This document shows positions 352 to 63,650 of a DNA stretch of 64,000 nt, piece by piece. Each line of letters begins with the position of its first letter. Position 1 is the stretch's first letter. Below the pieces are notes generated by a model, which saw only the letters and a program-made list of their open reading frames with translations, did not search any database and was not told where the DNA came from. The position numbers and the translations under genes were made by a program. Where the stretch lies: assembly GCA_016711805.1 (NCBI GenBank), contig JADJSH010000010.1:1-64000 (forward strand). The letters run 5' to 3'. This DNA is from Bacteroidota bacterium. GTDB taxonomy: Bacteria; Bacteroidota; Bacteroidia; B-17B0; Aurantibacillaceae.

Positions 352-359
352 CCCTTCAG

Positions 360-725
360 TGGACCCGGAGAGATTCGAACTCTCGTCCAAACAAGGAATT
401 AATATGCTTTCTACAAAGTTTAGAACATAATTGGTTTTCGATTCAAGTCAGGCTTATATTCATACCAAACTTAAACTTAGATGCTAATATTGTTTCAGAT
501 AACATCATCACTGAAACAAGTTGCTAATTTATGATGCAAAATTCTCGTCGCTAAGCAACGGTGCTACAAGGTTTGCAAAGGTTGGTTAGTCTTGGACTAA
601 GCAGCCATAGCGTAAGAATTCTCTTCGCCGAATAAAAGTTTGAGAGTTGAGTTTAAGGTGCCATATCCACAACGCACCACCTGCTTACTTACCAACCGCG
701 CTCGCTGTCAAAACCGGTCGGGCCC
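360..725 (-). ncRNA. ssrA: tmRNA (transfer-messenger RNA)
   Basis: Minus strand: tRNA-like 3' end with T-arm GAGAG-TTCGAAT-CTCTC and 3' acceptor strand CGGGTCC plus discriminator A. It pairs with the 5' end GGGCCCG (one GU pair). The 5' region GGGCCCGACCGGTTTTGACAGCGAGCGCGGTTGG resembles the tmRNA 5' consensus. An internal tag ORF ggc gaa gag aat tct tac gct atg gct gct tag encodes GEENSYAMAA-stop (compare Bacteroidetes GENNYALAA tags). Length ~366 nt. Confidence 0.8.
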
Positions 726-2821: not shown

Positions 2822-2890
2822 AGAGTTTGGTTTTTGAAACCAAATTTATAAAATGATTTGGATTAACATTAATAAATATACTGAAAAGAT

Positions 2891-3185
2891 GCGGGCGTGC
2901 CGGCGCAAAGAGGCTGGCGCCGTCGGGCTGCCGTTACAAGCTTTTTGGACTTCGGGGCTTCGATACTTCGACAAGTTCAGTAACCATCTAAGCCACCTTC
3001 AGCTACCAAAAAGGCTTTCCACTTGCATCCCTCAAGCAAATTCACTATTAAATGCGAAGTTTTACTTTCAATTTACGGGATTAACTTGCGTTAAGGATTG
3101 TAGCGAAAATCCTTTTTTATGAGGCACGAATAAAAAAGATTGAAGCGTAAAGCCTGACCCGACCAAAGGAAGGGTAACGCCCAAA
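2891..3185. repeat. intergenic repeat family A copy (MITE/REP-like, GC-rich, terminal inverted repeats GGGCGTG...ACGCCC)
   Basis: Shares modules GGGCGTGCCGGCGCAAAG...GCGCCGTCGGGCTG and CTTGCATCCCTCA with copies at 6950, 17719, 19286, 22694, 58399 and 63441. Confidence 0.6.
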
Positions 3186-3230: not shown

Positions 3231-5600
3231 TTATTTAACCACCACCACTGGCTTAGTAGCCGAGCCTGCATTTGATGAAATTGTTACATAATACACCCCA
3301 GATTTGTAATCCGATAAGCTAATAGTGTGATTGAATGATTCGTTTAAAACAACCGTTTCTTGATACAATAGTCTTCCAGAAATATCTTTGATTTCGATTA
3401 AAGACTTATCAGCATTTTTAGTGAAACCTGTTAACTGAATCACATCATTTGCAGGATTTGGAATCACAGAGAAATAATGATTTTTATCAAGCATTTGCGA
3501 CACACCTGTTACTAAAAAGCAATTGTTAGCTACCACTTTATTAATGGCTTCGTAAGCTTTGTTTACTATTTCAATAGCACTATTGATGCAAATACTTCCA
3601 GAGCCATTTGTATAATAAATTCTACATAATGGTTGAGCTGTTAAATTTTTAGCAATCGTAGAATCTTTAAAGGATAAACAAATCACTTTATTACCACCAA
3701 TTAAAAAATCTGGCGTTTCAGGATACACATTTGTTGGAACTAAATTCACCACATTTAAAATAGTTGCGCCGCTAATGGTAAATTCATATCCTAAAACACG
3801 TGCCGTAGGATTTTGAATATATACATCAAAATAATTTTGAGAAACATCTACATTTCCAATGCTTAAAGTAGCTGTGTTATTTGGATTTATATTACCTCTT
3901 GGAAATAAACAATTTGTATTAATAGTTGAACCATGATTAACACAATTAGCCATTAAAGCGGCATCCCAAACGGTTATGGTTCCTGTATTATTCAAATCAT
4001 TACAACTATTAGCAGTAATACTTGTATTTAAAATTTGATTAATGTAAAGTTGACCATCTACTAATTGTTGAGTACCACTATTATTTAAATCGCCCATTTT
4101 TGCTGTTCCATTGCAAGTTCCGTTACAATCGATAGCCGCATTCCCAAATTGATTTCCGGCGCAATCAGAATATGAAGGGCAAGATGCTAATAAGGTAAAT
4201 CCTTTTTGACCAGAAGCATTGGCTGTAATTTTAATACAAGCTTGTGCCCAGTTATTTTGGTAATTACTTTCAAAATGCCCTAAAGCATCCGCCGATTGAT
4301 CCCAGTTAACTTTAGCTGCCATTACGTAATTCCCCGTATCTACATCCGTAATATCAATCCATTGGCACTCTAAACCAGCCGCATAAATATCTCCGCATTG
4401 TTTAGAGATTCCCATATTACCGCACGAAAACTTAGCTACTCCACCATCAGGGCAGCCATCAAAATCTAATACGCAAAAGCCGTTTTTAAATCCTATAGGA
4501 ATGGCTTGTCCGTTTGGTTTATATAAACGATACTCTGCATATCCTTCATAGTGTGCATGTCCGTGACAGTTGTTAGTTGTAAATTGTCCGGGATTAGTAC
4601 CAGGATCTCCTATATAATAATCTTGAGTTCCTATATTTTTTATGTATGTATCAAAATTAATTACCGTTCTAACTCCGTAACCATTTAAACAACTTTCAGT
4701 TACTCTACAATCGCCTGCTCCAGCATTTACGGTTCCTAAACTTAAGGAGCTAATAAATTGCGGTTGAACAATGGTTAAATCGGGCGCTGTGCATAATGGA
4801 CTTGGATAATACACACAACTACCATCATCGATAGTGGCTAATGGATTATAATTACATGCACTAAACGTCGTACAACCAGAAATTGGACCTTGATAATTAA
4901 TAGCAAAGTTAATCACCCCTGGACAAGAGTTATTATAAGATCCAACTCTAACAATATAGGTTTTTGATGTGTCTAAAGCACCCGATACTTCAGATTGCAA
5001 ACCACAGAAATCATCATTATACAAGATAGTTCCTGTATTATTAGTAGTAAAGGAACCATTGCAGTTATCGTACACCCATAATTTCGTGTCGCATGAACTT
5101 AATGAACAAGTAGATACTGTATACAGTCCTACTTGAGCCGGTTTAAATTTATAGAAATACTCATTACCTGGAGCTGTGTATGTACCTGTATTCACAGCAA
5201 TAGCCGTTTGGCAACTTTCGCCGGGTCCGCAATTAAAATAATAGGTATAAGTCCCACCAAACTGTCCGTTATTGTTCGTTTGTAAAACATTATTCACATA
5301 AATTTGAAAACTTCCGGCTCCATAATTACAGCAAATACCATCACCAAACGAATCGTTAATTACAAACGTTAAACAACCAGTTGATGCAACGCAAATTGTA
5401 CTGGTAGATGTTGTAGAATTGGTTAAAACACCATTCGACATTAACACCACACCAAATTTGTCTTTTAATTGCCAAGTGGTTTCAGCAGCATAATTATCAG
5501 TGGTTAAAACAACTTTCACTTCTATGCTACCACCTGGGCATTGACTAAAGATATTCAGAGAAGCTAAAAATAAAATAAGAGTAGTAAAGATATATTTCAT
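3231..5600 (-). CDS. T9SS-secreted multidomain protein with lysyl oxidase (LOX)-like copper amine oxidase catalytic domain
   Basis: Signal peptide. Internal segment [14 protein letters not shown]...[12 protein letters not shown]...[22 protein letters not shown] aligns with the animal LOX catalytic core (WHSCHQHYH copper site ... FCLEDTSC ... [21 protein letters not shown]). C-terminal Por_Secre_tail/T9SS sorting domain (…[23 protein letters not shown]). Confidence 0.75.
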   Translation of the reverse strand: [789 protein letters not shown]

Positions 5601-5708: not shown

Positions 5709-6914
5709 ATGTCAAAATTTAAAATAGGCGTTCTTCGCGAAGAAAAATTTCCACCAGATAAACGAGTTCCATTAACCCCACTAATTTGTACTGAATTACT
5801 GCGTTTGTACCCGAACTTAGAAATTGTGATTCAACCTAGCAAAATAAGATGTTATAGCGATGAAGAGTATTTGGCATTTGGATTAACCTTACAAGAAGAT
5901 TTAAGCGATTGCCACGTATTAATGGGTGTTAAAGAGGTTCCTAAAGAGAACTTGATTTCTGGTAAAAAATACTTTTTCTTTTCTCATACCATCAAGAAAC
6001 AGGCCCATAATATTAAGTTAATGAAGACCTTAATTGAAAAGAGAATTCAGATGGTTGACTACGAAACCTTAACGGATAAAAACCATAACCGTATTATTGG
6101 TTTTGGGCGTTATGCAGGTATTGTAGGAGCTTACAATGGTATTTTAGGTTACGGACGTAAATATGATTTGTTTCAAATTAAACCAGCTAACCTTTGTCGT
6201 GATAGAGCTGAGATGGAAGAAGAATTGAAACGTGTAAAATTACCAAACATTAAAATTGCTTTAACAGGCGGTGGTCGTGTAGCTAATGGTGCTATTGAAA
6301 CTTTATCGGCTTTAAGAATTAGAAAAGTAACTCCCGAAGAATTTTTAATGGCTTCATTCAGAGAACCAGTTTATTGTCAGTTAAACCCAAGAGATTATGT
6401 TGAAAGACCCGATGATCATAATTTTGATTTGAATGATTTTTTTAAACATCCTGAGCATTTTGTATCTAAATTTTCGCCATTTACTAAAGCAACCGATATT
6501 TTTATTTCAGCACACTTTTGGGATCCACGTTCACCTAAAATGTTTACAACAGAGGACATGAAAGCTTCTGATTTTAAAATGAGTGTTGTGGCTGATATTA
6601 CTTGTGATATTGATGGAAGTGTGCCAACGACTTTAAGAGCAAGTACAATTGATAAACCTTTTTATGGCTACAATCCCAAAACAGATAAAGAGGACGTTCC
6701 ATTTAATAAGGAAACCATTTGTATTATGGCAGTTGATAATTTACCTTGCGAATTACCTCGTGATGCGAGTGATGATTTTGGTAAAGATTTGATGGAGCGT
6801 GTTTTACCGTTCTTATTTAAAGAAGATGTTGATGCAATTATTGAACGTGCTAGTATTTGTAAAGAAGGAAAATTAACTAGCAACTTTGACTACTTGAGCG
6901 ATTACGCTTATTAA
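5709..6914 (+). CDS. alanine dehydrogenase/PNT-fold enzyme, probable saccharopine dehydrogenase (lysine-ketoglutarate reductase)
   Basis: N-terminal IGVLREEKFPPDKRVPLTP typical of LKR/SDH-type AlaDH_PNT proteins; glycine-rich NAD site TGGGRVANGAIE; 401 aa. Confidence 0.55.
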   Translation: MSKFKIGVLREEKFPPDKRVPLTPLICTELLRLYPNLEIVIQPSKIRCYSDEEYLAFGLTLQEDLSDCHVLMGVKEVPKENLISGKKYFFFSHTIKKQAHNIKLMKTLIEKRIQMVDYETLTDKNHNRIIGFGRYAGIVGAYNGILGYGRKYDLFQIKPANLCRDRAEMEEELKRVKLPNIKIALTGGGRVANGAIETLSALRIRKVTPEEFLMASFREPVYCQLNPRDYVERPDDHNFDLNDFFKHPEHFVSKFSPFTKATDIFISAHFWDPRSPKMFTTEDMKASDFKMSVVADITCDIDGSVPTTLRASTIDKPFYGYNPKTDKEDVPFNKETICIMAVDNLPCELPRDASDDFGKDLMERVLPFLFKEDVDAIIERASICKEGKLTSNFDYLSDYAY

Positions 6915-8594: not shown

Positions 8595-10532
8595 ATGAGC
8601 TATATTGTAGACTATTGGTGGGTAATTATTCCCATTATTTTATTAATCTCTTACAAACTAATTTTCCGTTTATTCGGAATCATTATTATCCCAGAAGATA
8701 AGATTGGATTAGTCACCAAAAAATTTGTGTTATTTGGTGCTAATAAGGAATTACCTGCAGGGCGTATTATTGCTATTGATGGTGAAGCTGGTTTTCAAGC
8801 ACAACCTCTTGCCCCAGGAATTTATTTTTGGAAATGGATTTGGCAATATGAAATTACTCAACAGTCGTTTACTGTTATTCCAGAAGGAAAAATTGGTTTA
8901 GTAGTAGCCAAAGATGGTAAACAATTAGAAACAGGTTTTATCTTAGCTCGTAAAGTAGATTGCGATTCATTTCAAGATTCTGAAGCCTTTTTAAGAAATG
9001 GCGGACGTAAAGGTCGCCAGTCGGCTATTATTACTGCTGGTACTTACCGTATCAATACTTTCTTATTTGAAATCAGTACTTACGACATGACTCATATTAA
9101 TGAGAATATGGTTGGTATTGTAACAACGATGGATGGTATGCCTATTGAAGAAGGCAACATTGCAGGTAAGCAAGTATTAGGACATAATAATTTCCAAGAT
9201 TGTGATGCTTTCTTAGAAGCTAATGGTAACAAAGGTTTACAGCCAGAGATTATTTTAGCAGGTTCATATTATTTAAATCCTTGGTTCATACAAGTTGAGC
9301 AAATTAAAATGACAGAGATTCCAATTGGTTATGTAGGTGTTGTTATTTCTTATGTAGGATCAGAAGGAAAAGATTTAAGTGGTACTGAATTTAAACACGG
9401 TAACATTGTGAGTAAAGGCGAAAAAGGTGTTTGGGCTGAGCCATTAGGGCCTGGTAAATATCCAGTAAATACATTTATTATGCGAGTGGAATTAGTACCA
9501 ACTACTAACTTAGTTTTAAACTGGGCAAATGCTCGCAGCGAATCACATCAATTAGATAAAAACTTATCGACTATTACAGTACGTTCAAAAGATGGTTTCC
9601 CTTTTAATTTAGATGTTTCTCAAATTATTCATATTCCAACAACGGAAGCACCAAAAGTAATTGCACGTTTTGGTAGCATGATGAATTTAGTTGGACAAGT
9701 ATTAGAACCAACTATTGGTAACTATTTCCGTAACTCGGCTCAAGATAGTGATGTGATTGCTTTCTTAAGCACTCGTAAAGAACGTCAGGATGCTGCTAAA
9801 TCAAAAATCAGTCAAGTGTTAGACCAATACAATGTGAATGGTGTTGATACTTTAATTGGAGACATTGTTCCACCAGAAAGCTTAATGAAAACATTAACCG
9901 ATCGTAAAATTGCCGAAGAGCAAAATACAACCTTTGAAACTCAAAAACGTGCCGAGGTAACTCGTCAGGCTTTAGAGAAAGAAACAGCGGTTGCTGATAT
10001 GCAAAAAGAAATTGTAAAAGCTGATCAAGGCGTATTAATCTCTGAACGTATTGCAGATGCTGCCGTTAAGAAAGCAACAGGTGAAGCGCAAAGTGTTAAG
10101 ATTTCTTCTAATGCAGAAGCAGATAGATTAAAGGTAATCGCAGCAGCTGATGCGGAGAAAACAAAATTATCAGCCAATGCAGAAGCAGAGAAAGTTAAAA
10201 TGCTAGCAAATGCAAATGCAGAGAAAATATCGGTAACCGGTACAGCCGAAGCACAAAGTATTTTAGCAGTAGGTAAATCAAATGCAGAATCTTACCGATT
10301 AGCAGTTGAAGCCATGGGTGGCGATAACTTCAGCCGCTTAAAAGTAACGGAAGCAATAGGTAAAGATAAAATCAAAGTGATTCCAGATGTATTAATTACT
10401 GGCGGTAACGGCGATGGAGCTAACGGTCCTATCAGCGGATTATTAGGATTAAAATTATTAGAAGAAGTATCAAAAAACATGGGTAAGAATGTAGAGGAGA
10501 AACCTCATACAGACACTGATACTAAAAAATAA
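8595..10532 (+). CDS. flotillin-like SPFH/band-7 domain protein (YqiK-like)
   Basis: N-terminal TM anchor, SPFH domain, long Ala/Glu-rich coiled-coil with EA repeats near the C-terminus; 645 aa. Confidence 0.8.
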   Translation: MSYIVDYWWVIIPIILLISYKLIFRLFGIIIIPEDKIGLVTKKFVLFGANKELPAGRIIAIDGEAGFQAQPLAPGIYFWKWIWQYEITQQSFTVIPEGKIGLVVAKDGKQLETGFILARKVDCDSFQDSEAFLRNGGRKGRQSAIITAGTYRINTFLFEISTYDMTHINENMVGIVTTMDGMPIEEGNIAGKQVLGHNNFQDCDAFLEANGNKGLQPEIILAGSYYLNPWFIQVEQIKMTEIPIGYVGVVISYVGSEGKDLSGTEFKHGNIVSKGEKGVWAEPLGPGKYPVNTFIMRVELVPTTNLVLNWANARSESHQLDKNLSTITVRSKDGFPFNLDVSQIIHIPTTEAPKVIARFGSMMNLVGQVLEPTIGNYFRNSAQDSDVIAFLSTRKERQDAAKSKISQVLDQYNVNGVDTLIGDIVPPESLMKTLTDRKIAEEQNTTFETQKRAEVTRQALEKETAVADMQKEIVKADQGVLISERIADAAVKKATGEAQSVKISSNAEADRLKVIAAADAEKTKLSANAEAEKVKMLANANAEKISVTGTAEAQSILAVGKSNAESYRLAVEAMGGDNFSRLKVTEAIGKDKIKVIPDVLITGGNGDGANGPISGLLGLKLLEEVSKNMGKNVEEKPHTDTDTKK

Positions 10533-11730: not shown

Positions 11731-12858
11731 ATGCGCTTAACACAACGCCTTCAATTAATCAAATTAACCGTTCTTATTGGCTTGTTAGCGTCCATTATTT
11801 TAAGCCATCCTTTATGGGCAGGAGACAGATGGTTTCCAAAAACAACATTGATAGAAGATTATTTTGGAGTGCCCTACCCTTACGATTACATTCAATTTGC
11901 GGTTTTAATTTTACTCATCATATTTTCTTTTAGTACGCAAAAAAAGTTTCCAACTGTATTATTAATTTTATTTTCGGTGTATATGTGTTTTGATGATCAA
12001 AACCGTTTACAGCCATGGTTTTATAATTACATTTTAATCTTATTTATCTTATTATTTTATAGGCATCGTGTAGATGAACCTAACAATTACACCACGGTCT
12101 TTATTTCGCTGCAGTTGCTGGTGGCCTTGATTTACATCTTTAGTGGGATTCAAAAAATGAATTCTTCTTTTGTACCAGATACCTTTGAATGGATGATTAG
12201 TGCTTTTGATACGGTATTATCAAAACGACAGCTTGGCATCGTAACTAAATTTGGTTATGTAATTCCCTACTTCGAATTAAGTATTGGTGTATTATTACTC
12301 GTAAAGCAGTTTCGCTTTATTGTTGTTCCATTAGTAATCCTAATGCATATTTTAATTTTAATCATGTTAGGTCCAACTGGTAAATCCTATAACTCCGTAG
12401 TTTGGCCTTGGAATATCATCATGATAGCATTAATACTGCTGCTATTTGCTGACGTTAAACAAGAACGCTTTTTTGATATTTCCTTTTTATTTAAAGGATT
12501 GAGTTTTTATATCGTGATTACCTTAATGCTCATCTTCCCTATTTTTAGTTTAAATAACCAATACGATTCGTATTTATCAAGTTCATTATATTCATCAAAC
12601 TTAAATGAATGTCAGTTAATTTTAACGGACAAAGCCTATAATCGATTACCTAATGATCTTAAAGCATTTTGCACTACCAATGTTGATCACAATGTATTAT
12701 ATATTAAAAAATGGGTAGAAGAAGAACTAAACGTGCCATGCGTACCTGAGTACCGTATCTTTAGAAACGCTCATCATTATATTATTCAACTCACACAAAC
12801 TGATTTGAAAGAAGTTAAATTTAACTTTATTGAAAGAGAGAAATTAATTGAGTTTTAG
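11731..12858 (+). CDS. polytopic integral membrane protein of unknown function
   Basis: At least 8 hydrophobic segments; no catalytic motif recognised. Confidence 0.4.
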   Translation: MRLTQRLQLIKLTVLIGLLASIILSHPLWAGDRWFPKTTLIEDYFGVPYPYDYIQFAVLILLIIFSFSTQKKFPTVLLILFSVYMCFDDQNRLQPWFYNYILILFILLFYRHRVDEPNNYTTVFISLQLLVALIYIFSGIQKMNSSFVPDTFEWMISAFDTVLSKRQLGIVTKFGYVIPYFELSIGVLLLVKQFRFIVVPLVILMHILILIMLGPTGKSYNSVVWPWNIIMIALILLLFADVKQERFFDISFLFKGLSFYIVITLMLIFPIFSLNNQYDSYLSSSLYSSNLNECQLILTDKAYNRLPNDLKAFCTTNVDHNVLYIKKWVEEELNVPCVPEYRIFRNAHHYIIQLTQTDLKEVKFNFIEREKLIEF

Positions 12859-13098: not shown

Positions 13099-14160
13099 AT
13101 GAAAAAACTCCTACTCTCTCTTACATTAATCTCTACTTTTTGTTTCGCTCAAATTCCCGTGGGATATTATAATACAGCACAAGGCTTAACGGGCAATACA
13201 TTAAAAATAGCCTTGCACAATATTATTGATAATCATACGCAAGTTTCTTATAATGGCTTATGGACAGCCTATCAAAAAACAGATAGAAAAACCAACGGAA
13301 AAGTATGGGACATGTATAGCGATATTCCATCAGGAACAGCTCCGTATAATTTTACATTTGTAACTGACGAATGTGGAAATTATGCCGTAGAAGGCGATTG
13401 TTATAATCGTGAACATAGCTGGCCACAAAGTTGGTTCAACTCTGTTTCAGGACCAAGTTCTGATTTATTTCACGTGTATCCAACGGATGGAAAAGTAAAT
13501 GGTATAAGAAGTAATTATCCTTATGGAAATGTAGGCGTTGCAAGTATCACCACATTGAACGGAAGTAAATTAGGAAGTTGTTCTGATTTAGGATACAGCC
13601 AAATCGTGTTTGAACCAATTGACGAATACAAAGGAGATTTAGCAAGAACGTATTTTTATATGAGTACGCGTTATTATAGCGAAGATGGTGGTTGGTCAAC
13701 ATCAGGTGCAACCAATAAATCAAACATATTACCTTGGCAAATGAATGTATTATTACAATGGAATCAACAAGATCCAGTAAGTGCAAAAGAAATTGCGCGT
13801 AACGATTCTGTTTATTACAAATTTCAAAATAACCGAAATCCGTTTATTGATCATCCCGAGTGGGCTGATAGTATTTGGACTTTTGATACGGAAGTTTTTA
13901 TAAAAGAAATCCAATTACAACATTCCTTTTCTGTGTTTCCAAATCCAGCAAGTAACTCATTTCAAATTATTAATAAAAGTAATTCTCAAAAAAACGTAAC
14001 CATAAAAATCACAACAATCACAGGAGAATTATTAGAAGAGAAAGTAGTTTCTTTACAAGAATCTGTTTTAATTAATTGCGAAGATTGGGCAAAAGGAATC
14101 TATATTATAAACTTGAGTTCAGAGCAATCAGTTTCTAATAGTATGTTTATAAAAGAATAG
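13099..14160 (+). CDS. secreted endonuclease I family nuclease with T9SS C-terminal sorting domain
   Basis: Signal peptide; endonuclease I signature YNREHSWPQSWF; C-terminal Por_Secre_tail-like segment (FSVFPNPASNSFQI...KGIYIINL...). Confidence 0.8.
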   Translation: MKKLLLSLTLISTFCFAQIPVGYYNTAQGLTGNTLKIALHNIIDNHTQVSYNGLWTAYQKTDRKTNGKVWDMYSDIPSGTAPYNFTFVTDECGNYAVEGDCYNREHSWPQSWFNSVSGPSSDLFHVYPTDGKVNGIRSNYPYGNVGVASITTLNGSKLGSCSDLGYSQIVFEPIDEYKGDLARTYFYMSTRYYSEDGGWSTSGATNKSNILPWQMNVLLQWNQQDPVSAKEIARNDSVYYKFQNNRNPFIDHPEWADSIWTFDTEVFIKEIQLQHSFSVFPNPASNSFQIINKSNSQKNVTIKITTITGELLEEKVVSLQESVLINCEDWAKGIYIINLSSEQSVSNSMFIKE

Positions 14161-22950: not shown

Positions 22951-25900
22951 TTACCCAACATTTTTGGCAACATAAATAATATTAGAAGTGAGTTTAGTTG
23001 TATCTAATACTTCTAACGTTAAATGAGGATGCTTAGCAATGGTATCTTTAATTAAAGTTCCACTCACAAAGTGTAAACCATCGGTCTTAGTTTTATTAAA
23101 ACCAAATACTTTGGTGCTCATAAACTCGGTGTACCAAGTTCCTTTTTGGCGAGTAGCAATGTCTTTATCCGCATCACGAATCACCAACACACCACCTTTA
23201 TTTAATTTAGACACGCAATTTTCAATCACTTGAATTTGTTGCTCTTCTTTTAAATAATGTAAGACATCGCTGATAATAAATCCGTCCGCTTGAGGAAAAT
23301 CAAATACAGTGACATCACCCACAGCAAAAGAAAGCTTATCTGATTTGTCTATACAACCATCAGCCACCGCAATTTTTTCATCATCATAATCAACGCCTAA
23401 AATTTCGCGGTTACGTCCCTTGAACATTAACATATAAGGCAAGAAACCATAACCACAGCCTACATCCACAATTTTTCCAGTTTTAGGCATTAGGCTTTCA
23501 AACAATTGATAATTATTTTCTAAGCCAGTTTTAATGCGACAGTACCATTCTAACACAGGTCCTTTAAAAATATAATTTCGAATTAAACGAGAACGGAAGT
23601 AGCCAACGGTTTCTTTTTCTTGTTTTAATAAGTCGTATTCTTTGCGCATTAACTTACAAATAGCTTTGGTGCGTTCTTGGTATGTCGCTCCAAAAGAAGT
23701 ATCCGTCGGTTTAATGCGTTCTAATAATTTAACCGTTAAAGAACCATCTTTAAAATGAAAATCACCTTTAGTTACCGTATCCCCTGCTCCATGTAATAAT
23801 AAAGGAACAATATCCAATTGCATTTGTTCTGCTAATAAAAAGGCGCCTTTATGGAAACGCAAAATATCACCTGTCACGCTGCGTGTTCCTTCAGGGAAAA
23901 TTAAAATAGAATAACCTTGTTTTACTAATTCGGTTAACGACGGAATACATTTTTCGTAACCATCCGAAGCACGGTAATAATCAGCTTTCTTTACAATCCA
24001 CCCGTAAAAAGGAGAATTGTAAACCCAATCGTTTGTAAAGACAACAATTTTAGGATATAGCTGTAACGTTAGCGCTAAATCAATATGCGATTGATGGTTG
24101 GAAATAATGATCGCTGGTTTTTCAAACGTTTCGTTGTGTGGATTTACAATTGTTTTTTTGACATTGAAAAAGCAAGCCAAAATAAAACGGAACGTGTACA
24201 TAATGATATAATGAAATATCAATTTACGAGTAGCTGTTTTGGCTGGGAAGATTGTAAATAGTAAAGCACCACAAATTGTAATCAACAATGACCCTACAAC
24301 AAAACCAAAAAAGCCAACAACCGTAATTAAAATGTATTTAGCAGTAAATGGCAGCAAGCCTTTATTTCTTCGATTTAAAACCAACCAATTAAATAATAAT
24401 GGTTGTGCGATAAAAGAAATAAAAACAACACACAACATACCAATTAACGTAATCAAAGCAATAGATTGCAAAGCAGGATGTTTAGCAAATACCATCACTC
24501 CTATTCCTATAATAGTAACTAAAGCTGATAAGAGAATAGATGATTTAAAAGAGTTCAATGTTTTTTTACCAAACTTATATTCGTTAAGTAAGCCATCCAT
24601 GATAAAAATACTGTAATCGTCTCCCAAACCAAAAATAAAAGTTGAGATGATGATATTAATGATATTGAATTTAATACCAAATATGCCCATGATTCCTAAA
24701 ATCCACAACCAACTAATTAACATAGGTAAGAAGTTAATCACTGCTAATTCAATACGTCCGTGATTTAACAACATAAAGCCAAATACCAAAATAGAAGTAA
24801 TCATTAAAATGGTATTGAAATCAGAACTGATCACTTCAACAAACTTTGAAGTCAGATTTTGTTTATCAAATACCACAATGTTTGGATTGGATTCAAAGGC
24901 TTTATAAATCAATTCTCTATTCTCAGCATCCACTTTTACATGGTTAATAATAGACGGCTTACCATTTACTTTCCCAATCCATTCTTTAAACAAATATTTA
25001 TTCAACGAATCCGAATCGGCCTGAGATAATTTAGAAACAGGATTATCTAATAAATTGTAAAACGATTGAAAAGCGGTTTCTTTAAACTTAAAATTCAATC
25101 CTGTAGCAATTAATTGTTGTTTTAAACTATCTTTTTTAGCTTGGTTAAAGAATTTATTCCAACGGTTAATACGCACTTCTTGTTCTTTGTCAGACATAAA
25201 CAAGGCACTTACCGAAGAATATTTTTTAATAAGACCTTGTTGCTTTAATGCCTCTAACTTTTCTGAAACAACCGTGTTATTATCTAAAGCTTCGTTTAAT
25301 GTATTTCCGTTACTAAATACGTAAACCGAACGCGCGGCAAAATTATTAACTTCATCTAAATGTTTTTCAGCATCACGAGTTTCTTTGGTCATGAAACTCA
25401 TTTTGTTCATGTCACTTTCAAATTCAACATCACCTGCAAAAAATGTAAATACAATGGTTAAGATGAAAGCAGAAATTACAATTACTTTGTTTTTATCAAA
25501 ACGATAAGCCGTAAATCTATCAATCCATGAATGTGGAGCTTCATCCGTCTCAACATGCTCTTTTTCTTTTCTGAAACTAAATTTTAATAATTGAGGCAAG
25601 ACAAAAATAGAGAACAACATCGCTCCTATCAACGAAAAGGCCGCAAACAAACCAAAATCATGTAGCGCTTCTGACTTAGCAAATAATAAACTTAAAAAAG
25701 CACCAACGGTGGTTGTACAGCCAATTAACATGGGCACGGTTAAATCTTGTAAAACTGTTTTTACATCTCGTGTATGTTTGTAATGCGTAAAAAAATGTAA
25801 GGAATAATTAATGGCAATACCCAATACCACCGCCCCTGCTCCTATAGCAATGGCAGAGACAACACCTTTTAATAAAAACAAAAAGCTTAAGGCAAATGCC

Positions 25901-26808
25901 ATCCCAAAACCAACTGGAAATAAAATAAAAATAGTAACTAAGGGATTTTTAAAGTACAAGCCTAATAATAAAGCAATCACAATGACAGCAACACTAGAAG
26001 TATATAAACTATCTTTGCGCAACTGATTAGCATTACCAGCCGATACAACAGCCGCCCCAAAATTCTCTATTAAAACCGTTTCATTACTAAATGCTTTACA
26101 AGCACTATCCACCACATTTATTAAGTGCGTGTTGCCTTTGGTATCATTAGGTAAATGAGCAGGTGTGATAAATAACAACACATGCTGATGATCTTTAGTA
26201 ACAATGTGACTATTATACGTTTCAAATTTTTCATCTAACTGAATGTTTTGTAATTTTTTAAGCGCAATGGGCGTAAAGTTGAGCGGATCGCGTTGGATAT
26301 ATTTCCCTAAAACAACACCAGAAGGAGAAAGCAAGGTGGCATAATCTCTTTCAATGGTAGCATCAATACTATCTTTTAAAATGAGGTTTGAGATTTTCGC
26401 GTAATCCTTTTCTTCTAAAAACAGTGGCAAATTATGATAAAACACATCATACACTTGCTGCATTCTATCGTCTGATAAAGTATAAGTAATATCAATATAA
26501 TCTTCGTTACTTAACTTTTGTTGGATATGGCTATAAACAGAATCTGTTTGAGCAATTAGCTGATCGATGTTCTCTCCATTTTTAGTAGAAGCATGCACAA
26601 TTAATTTATCCTTAGATTTTAAATTATCTAAAATTGAATTGATGGATTGCGAATTTTTATCAGAAGGAACAAAACGAGTAATGTCTTCTTCTAATTTAAT
26701 TTTTGAAGCAAAAAATCCTAACGCACCACAAGCAATTAAAATTAATAAGATGAAAAATAACTTTCGTTTTTGGAAAAAGGAATATATAAAATACGAAAAG
26801 TTAAACAT
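22951..26808 (-). CDS. trifunctional fusion: MMPL/RND-like exporter + lysophospholipid (LPLAT/PlsC-type) acyltransferase + class I SAM-dependent methyltransferase
   Basis: 1285 aa. Two repeats of periplasmic domain plus TM bundle with GLGDDY MMPL-type motif. Then acyltransferase motifs NHQSHIDL (HX4D) and FPEGTR. Then methyltransferase motif I VDVGCGYG and motif VLVIRD. Confidence 0.8.
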   Translation of the reverse strand: MFNFSYFIYSFFQKRKLFFILLILIACGALGFFASKIKLEEDITRFVPSDKNSQSINSILDNLKSKDKLIVHASTKNGENIDQLIAQTDSVYSHIQQKLSNEDYIDITYTLSDDRMQQVYDVFYHNLPLFLEEKDYAKISNLILKDSIDATIERDYATLLSPSGVVLGKYIQRDPLNFTPIALKKLQNIQLDEKFETYNSHIVTKDHQHVLLFITPAHLPNDTKGNTHLINVVDSACKAFSNETVLIENFGAAVVSAGNANQLRKDSLYTSSVAVIVIALLLGLYFKNPLVTIFILFPVGFGMAFALSFLFLLKGVVSAIAIGAGAVVLGIAINYSLHFFTHYKHTRDVKTVLQDLTVPMLIGCTTTVGAFLSLLFAKSEALHDFGLFAAFSLIGAMLFSIFVLPQLLKFSFRKEKEHVETDEAPHSWIDRFTAYRFDKNKVIVISAFILTIVFTFFAGDVEFESDMNKMSFMTKETRDAEKHLDEVNNFAARSVYVFSNGNTLNEALDNNTVVSEKLEALKQQGLIKKYSSVSALFMSDKEQEVRINRWNKFFNQAKKDSLKQQLIATGLNFKFKETAFQSFYNLLDNPVSKLSQADSDSLNKYLFKEWIGKVNGKPSIINHVKVDAENRELIYKAFESNPNIVVFDKQNLTSKFVEVISSDFNTILMITSILVFGFMLLNHGRIELAVINFLPMLISWLWILGIMGIFGIKFNIINIIISTFIFGLGDDYSIFIMDGLLNEYKFGKKTLNSFKSSILLSALVTIIGIGVMVFAKHPALQSIALITLIGMLCVVFISFIAQPLLFNWLVLNRRNKGLLPFTAKYILITVVGFFGFVVGSLLITICGALLFTIFPAKTATRKLIFHYIIMYTFRFILACFFNVKKTIVNPHNETFEKPAIIISNHQSHIDLALTLQLYPKIVVFTNDWVYNSPFYGWIVKKADYYRASDGYEKCIPSLTELVKQGYSILIFPEGTRSVTGDILRFHKGAFLLAEQMQLDIVPLLLHGAGDTVTKGDFHFKDGSLTVKLLERIKPTDTSFGATYQERTKAICKLMRKEYDLLKQEKETVGYFRSRLIRNYIFKGPVLEWYCRIKTGLENNYQLFESLMPKTGKIVDVGCGYGFLPYMLMFKGRNREILGVDYDDEKIAVADGCIDKSDKLSFAVGDVTVFDFPQADGFIISDVLHYLKEEQQIQVIENCVSKLNKGGVLVIRDADKDIATRQKGTWYTEFMSTKVFGFNKTKTDGLHFVSGTLIKDTIAKHPHLTLEVLDTTKLTSNIIYVAKNVG

Positions 26809-39573: not shown

Positions 39574-40515
39574 ATGAAACCTCTTTTTCTAAAAATTTCG
39601 TTCTTTATAATTTGCTCTTTAATGGGCTTTGTGTTTTTATTTAGTGGATATACTAAATTGTACCCTATTGAACCGTTTGAATATACATTTATCGATCTTG
39701 GTATTGGTGGATGGCGTTTAGCGCCTTTTATAGCAAGATTCATGATTGGTTTAGAATTTTTGATTGGATTTTTATTAATTTTTGGTCTATACACGAAAAA
39801 ATTTACCCTAAAACTTACGATTGCTTCGCTCATATTTTTCTCTGTTTATTTAGTTTTTATGATCATTAACTCGGGCAACAATGGGAATTGTGGTTGCTTT
39901 GGTCAAGTGTTAGTTATGACTCCTTTGCAGGCACTAATTAAAAATGCGGTAATGCTTGTTATTTGTCTATTGATCTATAAGTATTATGAGGGATTTGATT
40001 TTGGAAAAATTGGTAAATGGATTTTTGGCGTACTGTTTATTTTTTCGTTTGCATTGCCGCATATATTGAATTATGTAGATATCGATTATTCTGAAGCTTA
40101 TTTAACGAAACAAGAAGATCATTTTAAGTTAGAACTAGATAGTGTTTATACAAGTGCAAAAATTCACACGCCTCCAAAAACATTAAGTACAGGAAAACAT
40201 ATTATTGCATTTATGAGTATGAGTTGCGGCCATTGTAGGATTGCAGCAAAAAAAATGCGATTGATGAAACAACAAAATCCTAGTATTCCAATGTATCTAG
40301 TTTTAAATGGTGAGTATGATATGTTGCCGAAATTTTTTGATGATACAAAAGCTAGAAATATTGACTATTGTGTTTTAAACGGTAGAAACTTTATCTACTT
40401 AGCTGGTTTAGATTTACCAGCTATATATATGGTTAATAACTCAATTGTAGAAAACTATATTGATTATGCTCACCTCGATCAAACTGAAATTGAGGCTTGG
40501 CTTGCAAAGCCATAA
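39574..40515 (+). CDS. MauE/DoxX-like membrane domain fused to thioredoxin-like (TlpA-type) thiol-disulfide oxidoreductase
   Basis: 4-5 TM segments with GNCGCFG motif (MauE-like); C-terminal domain with CxxC (SCGHC). Confidence 0.6.
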   Translation: MKPLFLKISFFIICSLMGFVFLFSGYTKLYPIEPFEYTFIDLGIGGWRLAPFIARFMIGLEFLIGFLLIFGLYTKKFTLKLTIASLIFFSVYLVFMIINSGNNGNCGCFGQVLVMTPLQALIKNAVMLVICLLIYKYYEGFDFGKIGKWIFGVLFIFSFALPHILNYVDIDYSEAYLTKQEDHFKLELDSVYTSAKIHTPPKTLSTGKHIIAFMSMSCGHCRIAAKKMRLMKQQNPSIPMYLVLNGEYDMLPKFFDDTKARNIDYCVLNGRNFIYLAGLDLPAIYMVNNSIVENYIDYAHLDQTEIEAWLAKP

Positions 40516-43876: not shown

Positions 43877-45019
43877 CTATTCCTTAATAAACTTCATTTT
43901 AGCTACTGCCCCACTTAGTGTTTTTACAGTTAAAAAGTAAATACCAGTTGTTAAGTTCCCAACTGAAATAGAATTTGTTTGAGTGGTTTCTGATAAAACG
44001 ACTTTACCTAAAACATCGGTCACTTCAATACTTACGGACGTTTCATTCTCTAAATTAAAATGTAATATTGTATTTGCAGGATTTGGAAACAATTTTAAAG
44101 AATTTGCCAATGCCTTGTTTTCGTCAATGGATGTTAAAATAGGCATTGAATATTTATTAAAAAATCGCCAAATTTCTTTGGAGGCATTGATATCTAAATT
44201 AGTACCTACACCACCAAAAGGAAAGCCTGGCCAAGTGTGACCACCATTGATGATTTTATATAATTCAACCGAACTACCTCCAGTTCCTCCACTATAAATA
44301 TAATGTTCGGCCGTGCAACCATCTACTAAACTCGTATTCGGCACATTACTAAATGTTGCTGTTGGATTACAATTATTTTTTGTTACCCAATACTTCACAA
44401 CCGAATCTATTGGCATCATATTTTGCGACATATTGCCAAGGTACGGAACAGTTGCATCGCTAGTACCGTGAATTTGCATTACTGGCGCTGGACGCATTGG
44501 ATGACAATTAGGACCATACTGCGTCGTAAAAATACTACCTGTGACTGATGCAATTGCTGTTATTCTATTACTTAATTCGCACGCCAAGGTATGACTCATA
44601 AAACCACCATTACTCATCCCTGTTGAGTAAACTCTATCTAAATTAATATTATACGTTAAATCTAACGAATCAATTAAAGCACTTAAAAAAGCAATATCAT
44701 TTACTAAAGCTGATGACAAACCTGCATTCCCAAAGCGTTGACCAGAAGAATATGTCCCATTCGGGTAAACCATTAAAAAGTTAGCCGTATCAGCAATTGG
44801 CATAAAATTACTATACAATTGTTGTTGCTGAGCATTACTTGTGTAGCCATGCAAATTTAAAATTAAAGGTCTAGCGGTAGCTCCTGTATAAATGGCTGGA
44901 ACATATAAGCGATAAGAGCGATACTGGCCACCAACATAAATACTGTCAATAACCGTTGTTTGCGATTGAGAAATTAAAAAAGAGAAAGTAAATAAAAAAG
45001 AAAGTAAAGTTTTTTTCAT
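43877..45019 (-). CDS. secreted alpha/beta-hydrolase esterase (PHB-depolymerase/LpqC-like) with T9SS C-terminal sorting domain
   Basis: Signal peptide; nucleophile elbow GMSNGG; C-terminal Por_Secre_tail (LFPNPANTILHF...GIYFLTVKT...KFIKE). Confidence 0.7.
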   Translation of the reverse strand: MKKTLLSFLFTFSFLISQSQTTVIDSIYVGGQYRSYRLYVPAIYTGATARPLILNLHGYTSNAQQQQLYSNFMPIADTANFLMVYPNGTYSSGQRFGNAGLSSALVNDIAFLSALIDSLDLTYNINLDRVYSTGMSNGGFMSHTLACELSNRITAIASVTGSIFTTQYGPNCHPMRPAPVMQIHGTSDATVPYLGNMSQNMMPIDSVVKYWVTKNNCNPTATFSNVPNTSLVDGCTAEHYIYSGGTGGSSVELYKIINGGHTWPGFPFGGVGTNLDINASKEIWRFFNKYSMPILTSIDENKALANSLKLFPNPANTILHFNLENETSVSIEVTDVLGKVVLSETTQTNSISVGNLTTGIYFLTVKTLSGAVAKMKFIKE

Positions 45020-63440: not shown

Positions 63441-63650
63441 GCGGACCTCCTTTTTACCCTGCGTACAAAAAAAGTAAACAATGCCTCAATCCCTCACGCA
63501 AATTTTACTTTTAAATTGAAACTTATGCTTCGATCTTACAAAGAGCCAGCGTTAGGGATTGTAGTGAAAATCCTATTACGGAACAAAGTGAAGTAAAAGA
63601 TTGCAACGAAAAGCCCGACCATCCAGCTGGCGGGAACGCCCAAATCATAA
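63441..63650. repeat. intergenic repeat family A copy (diverged)
   Basis: hairpin CAATCCCTCACGC(loop)GCGTTAGGGATTG; right end AAAAGATTGCAACGAAAAGCCCGACC...GGGAACGCCC. Confidence 0.55.

What the first reader, a model, noticed from the sequence alone, without database searches (positions are those of the whole stretch)
3231..5600. Lysyl-oxidase-like copper amine oxidase domain in a T9SS-secreted protein
The 789-aa secreted protein contains [14 protein letters not shown] ... [12 protein letters not shown] ... [22 protein letters not shown]. This aligns almost residue-for-residue with the metazoan LOX catalytic core (WHSCHQHYH copper-binding histidines; ...[21 protein letters not shown] containing the LTQ-forming Lys/Tyr region). 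LOX is classically an animal extracellular-matrix enzyme; bacterial homologues are rare and patchily distributed. One coupled to a type IX secretion C-terminal sorting domain suggests a surface-exposed or secreted amine oxidase, for example cross-linking or oxidising host or biofilm proteins, or generating H2O2. The cysteine-rich N-terminal ~250 aa and the region between the LOX domain and the sorting domain have no assignable function.
Basis: partly seen in the sequence, partly recalled or inferred. Interest (0 to 1): 0.8.

Follow-up and report, generated by a model that had tools for sequence, protein, structure and literature searches.

The report
Secreted bacterial lysyl oxidase, T9SS cargo
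This gene encodes a real bacterial relative of the animal collagen-cross-linking enzyme lysyl oxidase, built for export to the cell surface; the protein family is common in uncultured freshwater Bacteroidota and already labelled in databases, but nobody knows what it does.

Summary

The rarity premise does not hold. At least 573 species-level genomes carry this subfamily, and the best 80 are all Bacteroidota MAGs. NCBI already names close relatives 'lysyl oxidase family protein', and LOX in Bacteroidetes was reported in 2015. The gene has native composition, no conserved neighbours and no sign of recent transfer from animals.

It is most likely a surface-displayed Cu/LTQ amine oxidase acting on extracellular amines. 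Its substrate and role are unknown. Verdict: new member of a known kind, moderate interest.

The parts
3231..5600 (-). Whole gene: 789-aa secreted multi-domain LOX-family protein (stop codon at 3231-3233)
   Evidence: ORF list. Full-length homologues at 41-92% identity with the same length and architecture. AF2 model with mean pLDDT 84.
5544..5600 (-). Sec signal peptide, aa 1-19 ([19 protein letters not shown] | QC...). The family consensus is ...A|QC.
   Evidence: Read from the sequence: a positively charged n-region, a hydrophobic helix (H2-14 in the model) and a small-residue c-region. Consensus. No signal-peptide predictor was available, so the cleavage site is inferred.
5229..5540 (-). 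N1: Cys-containing beta-sandwich, aa 21-124, with invariant D35, E40, W43, D83, D87, G88, C90, C91. Family unknown.
   Evidence: AF2 strands E25-122 with pLDDT about 85-90. Invariant columns. No Pfam hit. No sequence relation to N2 (hhalign probability <1%).
4875..5228 (-). N2: PPC (pre-peptidase C-terminal) / collagenase collagen-binding-domain-like beta-sandwich, aa 125-242
4785..4874 (-). Four-Cys linker mini-module, aa 243-272 (CxxxxxCNYxPxA...G.C......C), highly conserved
   Evidence: Invariant C243, C249, P253, A255, C262, C270. 58% mean identity among distant homologues. Function unknown.
4191..4784 (-). LOX catalytic domain, aa 273-470
4551..4565 (-). Copper-binding motif H346-G-H348-A-H350 (matches LOXL2 H626/H628/H630)
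   Evidence: Alignment mapping. Ligand identity from PMC5899467. 100% conserved in 118 homologues. Coordinates checked by translation.
4485..4487 (-). K372, the predicted LTQ lysine (matches LOXL2 K653)
4383..4385 (-). Y406, the predicted LTQ tyrosine and fourth metal ligand of the precursor state (matches LOXL2 Y689)
3906..4190 (-). Cys-rich stretch plus dockerin-like module, aa 471-565. It has two 12-residue Ca2+-loop motifs, [12 protein letters not shown] (nt 4056-4091) and [12 protein letters not shown] (nt 3963-3998), each followed by a helix.
   Evidence: Pfam Dockerin_1 E=0.004, 17.8 bits, below the 22.9 cutoff. Some homologues carry a precomputed PF00404 hit. Family profile vs dockerin structures 1DAQ/2MTE E=0.02. 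Helices 513-524 and 544-556 in the model. D504, D515 and D546 invariant, D535 >=90% conserved.
3501..3905 (-). Cohesin-like beta-sandwich, aa 566-700
3234..3500 (-). T9SS type A C-terminal sorting domain, aa 701-789

Best explanation
The gene encodes a catalytically competent LOX-family amine oxidase (copper plus the lysine tyrosylquinone cofactor, LTQ) that works outside the cell.

Proposed sequence of events:
1. The Sec system exports the precursor through an N-terminal signal peptide.
2. It folds in the periplasm and forms disulfides. It has 36 Cys, and the LOX domain keeps the LOXL2 disulfide framework.
3. It binds Cu2+ through H346/H348/H350 and self-processes K372 and Y406 into LTQ.
4. 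The T9SS recognises the type A C-terminal domain and moves the protein across the outer membrane. The CTD is then removed, and the protein is either anchored on the cell surface or released.
5. Outside, the LOX domain oxidatively deaminates primary amines, most likely epsilon-amino groups of lysine in extracellular proteins or peptides. The products are aldehydes (allysine), NH4+ and H2O2.
6. The N-terminal beta-sandwiches (at least one PPC / collagen-binding-domain-like) probably hold the enzyme on a polymeric substrate.
7. The dockerin-like plus cohesin-like pair probably mediates Ca2+-dependent self-association or docking to other surface proteins.

Shown here: domain identities, catalytic-residue conservation, the export signals, the family's breadth, and the lack of an operon. 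Inferred: enzyme activity, cofactor formation, surface anchoring, a macromolecular substrate, and the roles of the accessory modules.
For: LOX identity:
- PF01186 scores 89 bits against a cutoff of 20.4.
- H346/H348/H350, K372 and Y406 align with LOXL2 H626/H628/H630, K653 and Y689.
- Cys 298/345, 304/412, 376/393 and 383/402 align with the four LOXL2 disulfides C573-C625, C579-C695, C657-C673 and C663-C685 (residue roles from PMC5899467, and abstracts).
- Ca2+-site residues are mostly kept: D274/L275, E444, N449/N450.
- All of these are invariant in 118 full-length homologues and in alignment A1.
- The LOX domain is the most conserved module, which indicates purifying selection on catalysis.

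Export:
- The CTD is above the Pfam and NCBIfam cutoffs and matches solved CTD structures.
- Two other CTD-bearing enzymes lie in the same window, so this organism uses T9SS.

Macromolecular targeting:
- The protein has PPC/CBD-like and cohesin/dockerin-like modules.
- Variant architectures of the same LOX subtype carry adhesin-type domains: PKD, Big_12, discoidin, HYR, GEVED.

Precedent: an archaeal LOX homologue is an active, BAPN-sensitive amine oxidase (PMC6452851).
Against: - No biochemical data exist for any Bacteroidota LOX.
- No conserved neighbour points to a substrate or pathway.
- The PPC fold is widespread in secreted bacterial proteins, and only the collagenase versions are known to bind collagen. 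Collagen-binding residues were not examined.
- The dockerin-like module is below the Pfam threshold in this protein.
- The characterised archaeal LOX has relaxed specificity for small amines, so a small-molecule substrate is not excluded.
- Whether the mature protein is anchored or released cannot be told from sequence.
Confidence: 0.75

Rival explanations
1. Same enzyme, different job. It acts on small free amines (free lysine, polyamines, methylated or biogenic amines) at the cell surface. That would release NH4+ for nitrogen scavenging, generate H2O2 as an antimicrobial or algicidal agent, or both. This is analogous in outcome to the lysine epsilon-oxidase LodA of Marinomonas (from my own knowledge) and to the broad specificity of the archaeal HTU-LOX.
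For: HTU-LOX oxidises many small primary amines, including lysine, cadaverine, glycine, taurine and aminoglycosides (PMC6452851). The carriers are planktonic lake and wastewater Bacteroidota, where dissolved organic nitrogen matters (record titles). No substrate-protein gene is linked to the LOX gene.
Against: A small-molecule oxidase would not need about 590 aa of conserved binding-type modules: PPC-like, dockerin/cohesin-like, and adhesin domains in variant architectures. Animal LOX enzymes prefer peptidyl lysine (PMC5899467).
Confidence: 0.3
2. Structural cross-linker of the bacterium's own surface or matrix. The enzyme converts lysines in the cell's own surface, sheath or biofilm proteins to allysine, which then condenses spontaneously into covalent cross-links. 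This would be a bacterial analogue of animal ECM maturation. The cohesin/dockerin modules would place it within a surface protein array.
For: This is the canonical LOX chemistry. The dockerin-like and cohesin-like modules sit in one polypeptide. The type A CTD commonly leads to surface attachment (from established knowledge of T9SS).
Against: There is no linked structural or collagen-like gene. Grau-Bove et al. considered cross-linking of bacterial collagen-like proteins unlikely. No evidence for such cross-links in Bacteroidota was found in the literature searches.
Confidence: 0.2
3. Recent horizontal acquisition from an animal host, acting as a host-mimicking virulence or colonisation factor on host collagen or elastin.
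For: LOX is best known from animals. The N-terminal fold resembles collagenase collagen-binding domains.
Against: - Only 23-27% identity to LOXL2, against 63% within the Bacteroidota family.
- Gene GC of 0.349 and GC3 of 0.23 match the neighbours.
- The gene sits in housekeeping DNA with vertical synteny in close relatives.
- The family spans Flavobacteriales, Chitinophagales and Saprospiraceae at 41-46% identity, which indicates long residence in the phylum.
- By their record titles, the carriers are mostly free-living lake and wastewater MAGs.
Confidence: 0.03
4. Catalytically dead LOX-fold domain that is used only as a binding or scaffold module.
For: None specific. Pseudoenzymes are common among multi-domain surface proteins, and one T9SS-dependent 'inactivated metalloprotease' model exists in NCBIfam (one search lists NF052323).
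Against: Every catalytic residue (three His, Lys, Tyr) and the disulfide framework are 100% conserved across 118 homologues that are only 41-92% identical overall.
Confidence: 0.03

Closest known systems
Animal lysyl oxidases, structurally human LOXL2 (PDB 5ZE3; Pfam PF01186)
   Different: Only about 24-27% identity. The accessory domains differ completely: there are no SRCR domains and no LOX propeptide. Instead there are PPC-like, dockerin-like and cohesin-like modules. Export is through Sec plus T9SS. The substrate is unknown. D724 of the LOXL2 Ca2+ site is N446 here.
Prokaryotic LOX homologues surveyed by Grau-Bove et al. 2015 (PMC4448552) and the characterised archaeal HTU-LOX (Pestov et al. 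2019, PMC6452851)
   Same: LOX-domain proteins in bacteria, with Bacteroidetes explicitly listed among five bacterial phyla. HTU-LOX shows that a prokaryotic LOX can be an active, BAPN-sensitive amine oxidase.
   Different: Most prokaryotic LOX proteins described then had the LOX domain alone, with or without a signal peptide. The 2019 paper calls LOX frequent in Actinomycetes and some Deltaproteobacteria and only occasional elsewhere. This protein has a conserved seven-part architecture ending in a T9SS sorting domain. Its subfamily is present in at least 573 species-level genomes.
The database family itself: 'lysyl oxidase family protein' / 'T9SS type A sorting domain-containing protein' from Bacteroidota MAGs (NCBI, JGI, ENA)
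   Same: Same length, domain order and catalytic residues. The closest are P0027 (99% over 452 aa), P0026 (97% over 470 aa), L011 (96% over aa 168-789) and P0001 (92% full length). NCBI-named relatives are at 83% (P0003).
   Different: This exact sequence is not on record. No member has been studied experimentally.
Clostridial collagenase collagen-binding domains (ColG s3a/s3b, ColH s3) and the PPC fold
   Different: 16-18% identity and no Pfam PPC (PF04151) hit. The domain sits N-terminal to the enzyme rather than C-terminal to a protease. It contains conserved disulfide cysteines. Collagen binding is untested.
Cellulosomal cohesin and dockerin modules
   Different: Both modules are in one non-cellulosomal polypeptide of a Gram-negative T9SS cargo. 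The Pfam scores are sub-threshold (dockerin) or absent (cohesin). The binding partner is unknown.

Membership tests
Lysyl oxidase family (Pfam PF01186) | Significant match to the family profile, above the curated threshold | tested here: met
   89.3 bits against a cutoff of 20.4, E=3.5e-25. Family profile vs LOXL2 E=1e-32.
Lysyl oxidase family (Pfam PF01186) | Three copper-ligand histidines in an HxHxH motif | tested here: met
   H346/H348/H350 align with LOXL2 H626/H628/H630. 100% conserved in 118 homologues.
Lysyl oxidase family (Pfam PF01186) | Lys and Tyr precursors of the LTQ cofactor | tested here: met
   K372 matches K653 and Y406 matches Y689. 100% conserved.
Lysyl oxidase family (Pfam PF01186) | Conserved disulfide framework of the catalytic domain | tested here: met
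   Four of the five LOXL2 disulfides map exactly. The fifth is plausible (C455 with C474). All cysteines are invariant.
Lysyl oxidase family (Pfam PF01186) | LOX catalytic fold | tested here: met
Lysyl oxidase family (Pfam PF01186) | Copper-dependent, BAPN-sensitive amine oxidase activity, with LTQ actually formed | not testable with these tools
   Needs recombinant protein, an H2O2-coupled assay, phenylhydrazine labelling and mass spectrometry.
T9SS cargo with a type A C-terminal domain (TIGR04183 / PF18962) | C-terminal sorting domain above the curated thresholds, at the extreme C-terminus | tested here: met
T9SS cargo with a type A C-terminal domain (TIGR04183 / PF18962) | N-terminal Sec signal peptide | tested here: met
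   Read from the sequence and the model helix at aa 2-14. No dedicated predictor was available, so the cleavage site is inferred.
T9SS cargo with a type A C-terminal domain (TIGR04183 / PF18962) | The host encodes a T9SS and actually secretes the protein | tested here: inconclusive
   No T9SS machinery gene was seen in this 64-kb window. Two other CTD-bearing enzymes are present, and all carriers are Bacteroidota. Secretion itself cannot be tested here.
Dockerin (PF00404) | Profile match above threshold, plus duplicated Ca2+-binding loop and helix | tested here: inconclusive
   17.8 bits against a cutoff of 22.9. Profile vs dockerin structures E=0.02. Two DxNxS/TGxxxxxD loops and two helices are present. 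I describe it as dockerin-like and do not file it as a member.
Cohesin (PF00963) | Profile match and cohesin jelly-roll fold | tested here: inconclusive
PPC / collagenase collagen-binding domain (PF04151) | Profile match, PPC beta-sandwich fold, and collagen-binding surface residues | tested here: inconclusive
TPQ copper amine oxidases (CAO) | CAO fold and a TPQ-forming Tyr in the consensus motif | tested here: not met
   No CAO Pfam family among the hits. The LOX fold shares no overall similarity with CAOs (PMC5899467). The finding's title phrase 'copper amine oxidase' should be read as 'copper-dependent amine oxidase of the LOX type'.

The most novel reading that the evidence does not exclude
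Planktonic Bacteroidota carry a conserved, surface-displayed protein-cross-linking system. In this reading, a true lysyl oxidase is targeted by a collagen-binding-domain-like module to proteinaceous polymers, either their own matrix or the surfaces of algae or prey. It is organised on the cell by built-in cohesin-dockerin contacts. This would be a bacterial counterpart of animal extracellular-matrix maturation, and possibly close to the ancestral context of the LOX domain.
Probability: 0.12. Interest if true: 0.7.

Novelty: new member of a known kind. Interest (0 to 1): 0.4.

Why it matters
The native function of prokaryotic LOX enzymes is an acknowledged open question, described as 'enigmatic' and 'cryptic' in PMC6452851. 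This Bacteroidota subfamily is probably the largest coherent group of bacterial LOX proteins. It accounts for 239 of about 2,346 LOX-domain clusters at E<=1e-30 and occurs in at least 573 species. It has a fixed multi-domain architecture and a defined export route. That makes it a good entry point for finding out what a bacterial LOX does and where the animal enzyme's chemistry came from. It could also be a source of secreted, disulfide-stabilised amine oxidases for biotechnology. The gene in this window adds nothing beyond the already-annotated family, so the value lies in the family and not in this locus.

Tried and rejected
1. Functional link to the divergent neighbour at 5709..6914, an AlaDh/PNT-family protein that might be saccharopine-dehydrogenase-like and so lysine-related. 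Rejected: it is adjacent only in the 6 closest genomes and appears in 1 of about 72 other loci, 5 kb away.
2. Unbiased clustering of all flanking ORFs in 82 loci found no conserved partner. The 15-locus cluster is an antisense shadow ORF inside the LOX gene. Three distant loci have unrelated neighbours.
3. N1 and N2 as an internal duplication: no sequence relation, hhalign probability <1%.
4. Promoter and terminator. The sigma-70-type scan found fewer sites than in shuffles and no terminator. The Bacteroidetes -7 motif TAnnTTTG is not enriched in the window (103 matches against 112 expected) and is absent on the LOX strand upstream. The promoter is not identified.
5. The exact protein is not on record in the contig index.
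7. The AFDB50 fold library was unavailable, so I could not find which non-LOX proteins share the N1-N2 module.
8. I searched the 2015 paper's supplements for its Bacteroidetes species names and found nothing.
9. I did not build a LOX-domain phylogeny with metazoan and other bacterial sequences. Importing the published 154-sequence set was impractical, so the argument against recent transfer rests on identity levels, composition, synteny and taxonomic breadth.
Full report

Yes. An ATG-to-stop ORF of 789 aa occupies 3231..5600 on the - strand. The three quoted peptide motifs sit at aa 344-357, 372-383 and 411-432.
- Pfam Lysyl_oxidase (PF01186) matches aa 307-459 at E=3.5e-25, scoring 89.3 bits against a gathering cutoff of 20.4.
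- The single sequence finds human LOXL2 (PDB 5ZE3) at E=1e-14.
- The C-terminus matches the T9SS sorting domain above both curated thresholds: PF18962 at 47.5 bits (cutoff 27) and TIGR04183 at 41.5 bits (cutoff 23).

**2. Catalytic machinery**

I took residue roles from the LOXL2 crystal-structure paper (PMC5899467) and from abstracts that define LTQ as Lys653 plus Tyr689. I then mapped the HMMER alignment.

| Feature | This protein | Human LOXL2 |
|---|---|---|
| Metal ligands | H346 / H348 / H350 | H626 / H628 / H630 |
| LTQ lysine | K372 | K653 |
| LTQ tyrosine | Y406 | Y689 |
| Disulfide 1 | C298-C345 | C573-C625 |
| Disulfide 2 | C304-C412 | C579-C695 |
| Disulfide 3 | C376-C393 | C657-C673 |
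| Disulfide 4 | C383-C402 | C663-C685 |

- A profile of 69 family members raises the match to 5ZE3 to E=1e-32.
- That alignment extends N-terminally to the invariant P273-D274-L275. D274 and L275 correspond to the LOXL2 Ca2+ ligands D549 and L550.
- E444, N449 and N450 correspond to E722, N727 and N728. D724 is N446 here, but D in the family consensus.
- C455 with C474 plausibly corresponds to the fifth disulfide, C732-C746.
- Every one of these residues is 100% conserved in 118 full-length homologues that are only 41-92% identical overall.
- The LOX domain is the best-conserved module: 63% identity among distant homologues, against 24-48% for the other modules, apart from the short four-Cys linker at 58%.

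This is a true LOX-family catalytic domain and very probably an active one. Activity itself cannot be shown here.

**3. The rest of the protein**

They now have fold-level assignments.
- **aa 1-19:** a Sec signal peptide.
- **aa 21-124 (N1) and aa 125-242 (N2):** two confidently modelled beta-sandwiches (N-terminal model pLDDT 89, pTM 0.76).
  - N1 has a conserved acidic/aromatic cluster (D35, E40, W43, D83, D87) and no recognisable family.
  - N1 and N2 are not related in sequence.
- **aa 243-272:** a conserved four-Cys linker.
- **aa 471-565:** a Cys-rich stretch followed by a dockerin-like module.
  - It has two 12-residue Ca2+-loop motifs, [12 protein letters not shown] and [12 protein letters not shown], each followed by a helix.
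  - Pfam Dockerin_1 is sub-threshold at 17.8 bits against a cutoff of 22.9.
  - The family profile matches dockerin structures at E=0.02.
- **aa 701-789:** the T9SS CTD, matching solved CTDs including those captured in the T9SS translocon (8GLK, 8GL6).

I call these modules '-like' and do not file them as family members, because the profile thresholds were not met.

**4. How common is it?**

The full-length search returned 1,167 clusters at E<=1e-5 from a capped candidate set. All of the best 120 carry PF01186; apart from two truncated entries (452 and 470 aa) they also carry PF18962, and most are about 780-800 aa. NCBI names several of them 'lysyl oxidase family protein', from Bacteroidota, Flavobacteriales or Crocinitomicaceae MAGs.

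The best 80 are all MAGs labelled Bacteroidota, Flavobacteriales, Crocinitomicaceae, Chitinophagales or Saprospiraceae, apart from a few evident label errors. Their record titles mostly point to lakes and wastewater.

An exhaustive HMMER search of 1.84 billion cluster representatives with the LOX domain alone found 2,346 clusters at E<=1e-3 and 239 at E<=1e-30. The LOX domain is therefore a small family overall, and this Bacteroidota subtype is a substantial part of it.

Variant architectures of the same subtype add PKD, HYR, Big_12, GEVED, discoidin or MopE-motif repeats, and six of the seven examined end in a T9SS CTD.

The literature already lists Bacteroidetes among LOX-bearing phyla (PMC4448552). 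It described prokaryotic LOX proteins as mostly single-domain and only occasional outside Actinomycetes and Deltaproteobacteria (PMC6452851). I found no paper connecting LOX with T9SS, and none describing this family.

**5. Genomic context and origin**

The window is ordinary chromosomal DNA. It carries tmRNA, ThrRS, malic enzyme, a release factor, PyrF, phosphoglucomutase and a CCA-adding enzyme.
- The gene's GC (0.349) and GC3 (0.23) match its neighbours.
- Its odd codon profile reflects an N/T/G/S/C-rich, charge-poor composition.
- Synteny with the flanking genes holds only in the six or seven closest genomes.
- Three distant loci have unrelated neighbours.
- Clustering all flanking ORFs from 82 loci found no recurrent partner.

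So the gene stands alone. The tempting link to the divergent AlaDh/PNT-family gene is not supported. Low identity to LOXL2 (24-27%), native composition and deep divergence across Bacteroidota orders argue against recent transfer from animals. A formal phylogeny was not done.

**6. Mechanism**

Best-supported explanation (confidence 0.75 for the general mechanism): Sec export, periplasmic folding with many disulfides, Cu2+ loading and self-processing of K372 and Y406 to LTQ, T9SS translocation with CTD removal, then surface display or release. Outside the cell, the enzyme would oxidatively deaminate primary amines to aldehydes plus NH4+ and H2O2.

The conserved binding-type modules here, and the adhesin-type domains in variants, make a polymeric substrate such as peptidyl lysine more likely than free amines. 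The broad specificity of the archaeal enzyme keeps the rival reading open: small-amine oxidation for nitrogen scavenging or H2O2 production (0.3).

Self-matrix cross-linking is possible (0.2). A pseudoenzyme and an animal-derived virulence factor are each unlikely (0.03).

**7. Verdict**

The rarity premise is outdated, and the protein belongs to a large subfamily that databases already annotate. It is a new member of a known kind.

Interest is moderate (0.4). The locus itself is ordinary for its lineage. The family as a whole is uncharacterised, widespread and well suited to addressing what bacterial lysyl oxidases do.

Noticed in passing
window 3079..3163 (+) and 63540..63624 (+): Two copies of the Flavo-1 RNA motif (Rfam RF01705, 59.1 and 47.7 bits against a gathering score of 42). 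The first lies just past the 3' end of the LOX gene and is convergent with it. The 89-aa ORF at 2853..3122 (+) overlaps it and is probably spurious. The function of Flavo-1 is unknown. Its presence supports a Flavobacteriia-type lineage.
   Followed up: no
window 357..725 (-): tmRNA gene (RF00023, 95 bits, full length).
   Followed up: no
window 13099..14160 (+) and 43877..45019 (-): Two more T9SS cargo proteins: an Endonuclease I (E=1.7e-78) with a Por_Secre_tail, and an esterase/PHB-depolymerase-like hydrolase with a Por_Secre_tail. The endonuclease has the same domain combination as the NucA substrate seen in the solved T9SS complex 8GLK.
   Followed up: partly
window 3231..5600 compared with 5709..6914 and 8595..10532, in loci L006, L008, L010, L012-L014: In the closest genomes the LOX protein is only 67-83% identical, while the adjacent AlaDh-family protein is 93-95% and the band-7/SPFH protein is 93-97% identical. 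The surface protein therefore evolves much faster than its housekeeping neighbours, mainly outside the LOX domain.
   Followed up: partly
window 22951..26808 (-): A 1,285-aa fusion of an MMPL-type transporter region, an acyltransferase and a SAM methyltransferase. This is an unusual combination that suggests export-coupled lipid modification.
   Followed up: no
window 39574..40515 (+) and 11731..12858 (+): MauE-family membrane proteins: E=1.8e-21 for the first, and a weak sub-threshold 2.8e-5 for the second. In methylotrophs, MauE is linked to maturation of the quinone-cofactor enzyme methylamine dehydrogenase (from my own knowledge). No evidence connects these genes to the LOX gene.
   Followed up: no
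protein P0195 (2,284 aa) and P0152 (2,127 aa): Giant variants of the same LOX subtype. P0195 combines GBD_T9SS_assoc, PKD, LOX, HYR and six 'Cu-binding_MopE' motifs plus a CTD. P0152 combines LOX, GEVED, discoidin and six Big_12 domains plus a CTD. Putative metal-binding motifs next to a copper enzyme may be worth a look.
   Followed up: no
loci L009 and 14 others, antisense to the LOX gene (for example L009 6961..7281 -): A roughly 107-aa antisense ORF inside the LOX-domain coding region recurs in 15 loci. It is most likely a shadow ORF maintained by the conserved sense sequence and not a gene.
   Followed up: no
window 48612..51017 (-): An 801-aa protein with DUF5723, thrombospondin type 3 (Ca2+-binding) repeats and a C-terminal OmpA domain. 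It is a Bacteroidota outer-membrane protein of unknown function.
   Followed up: no
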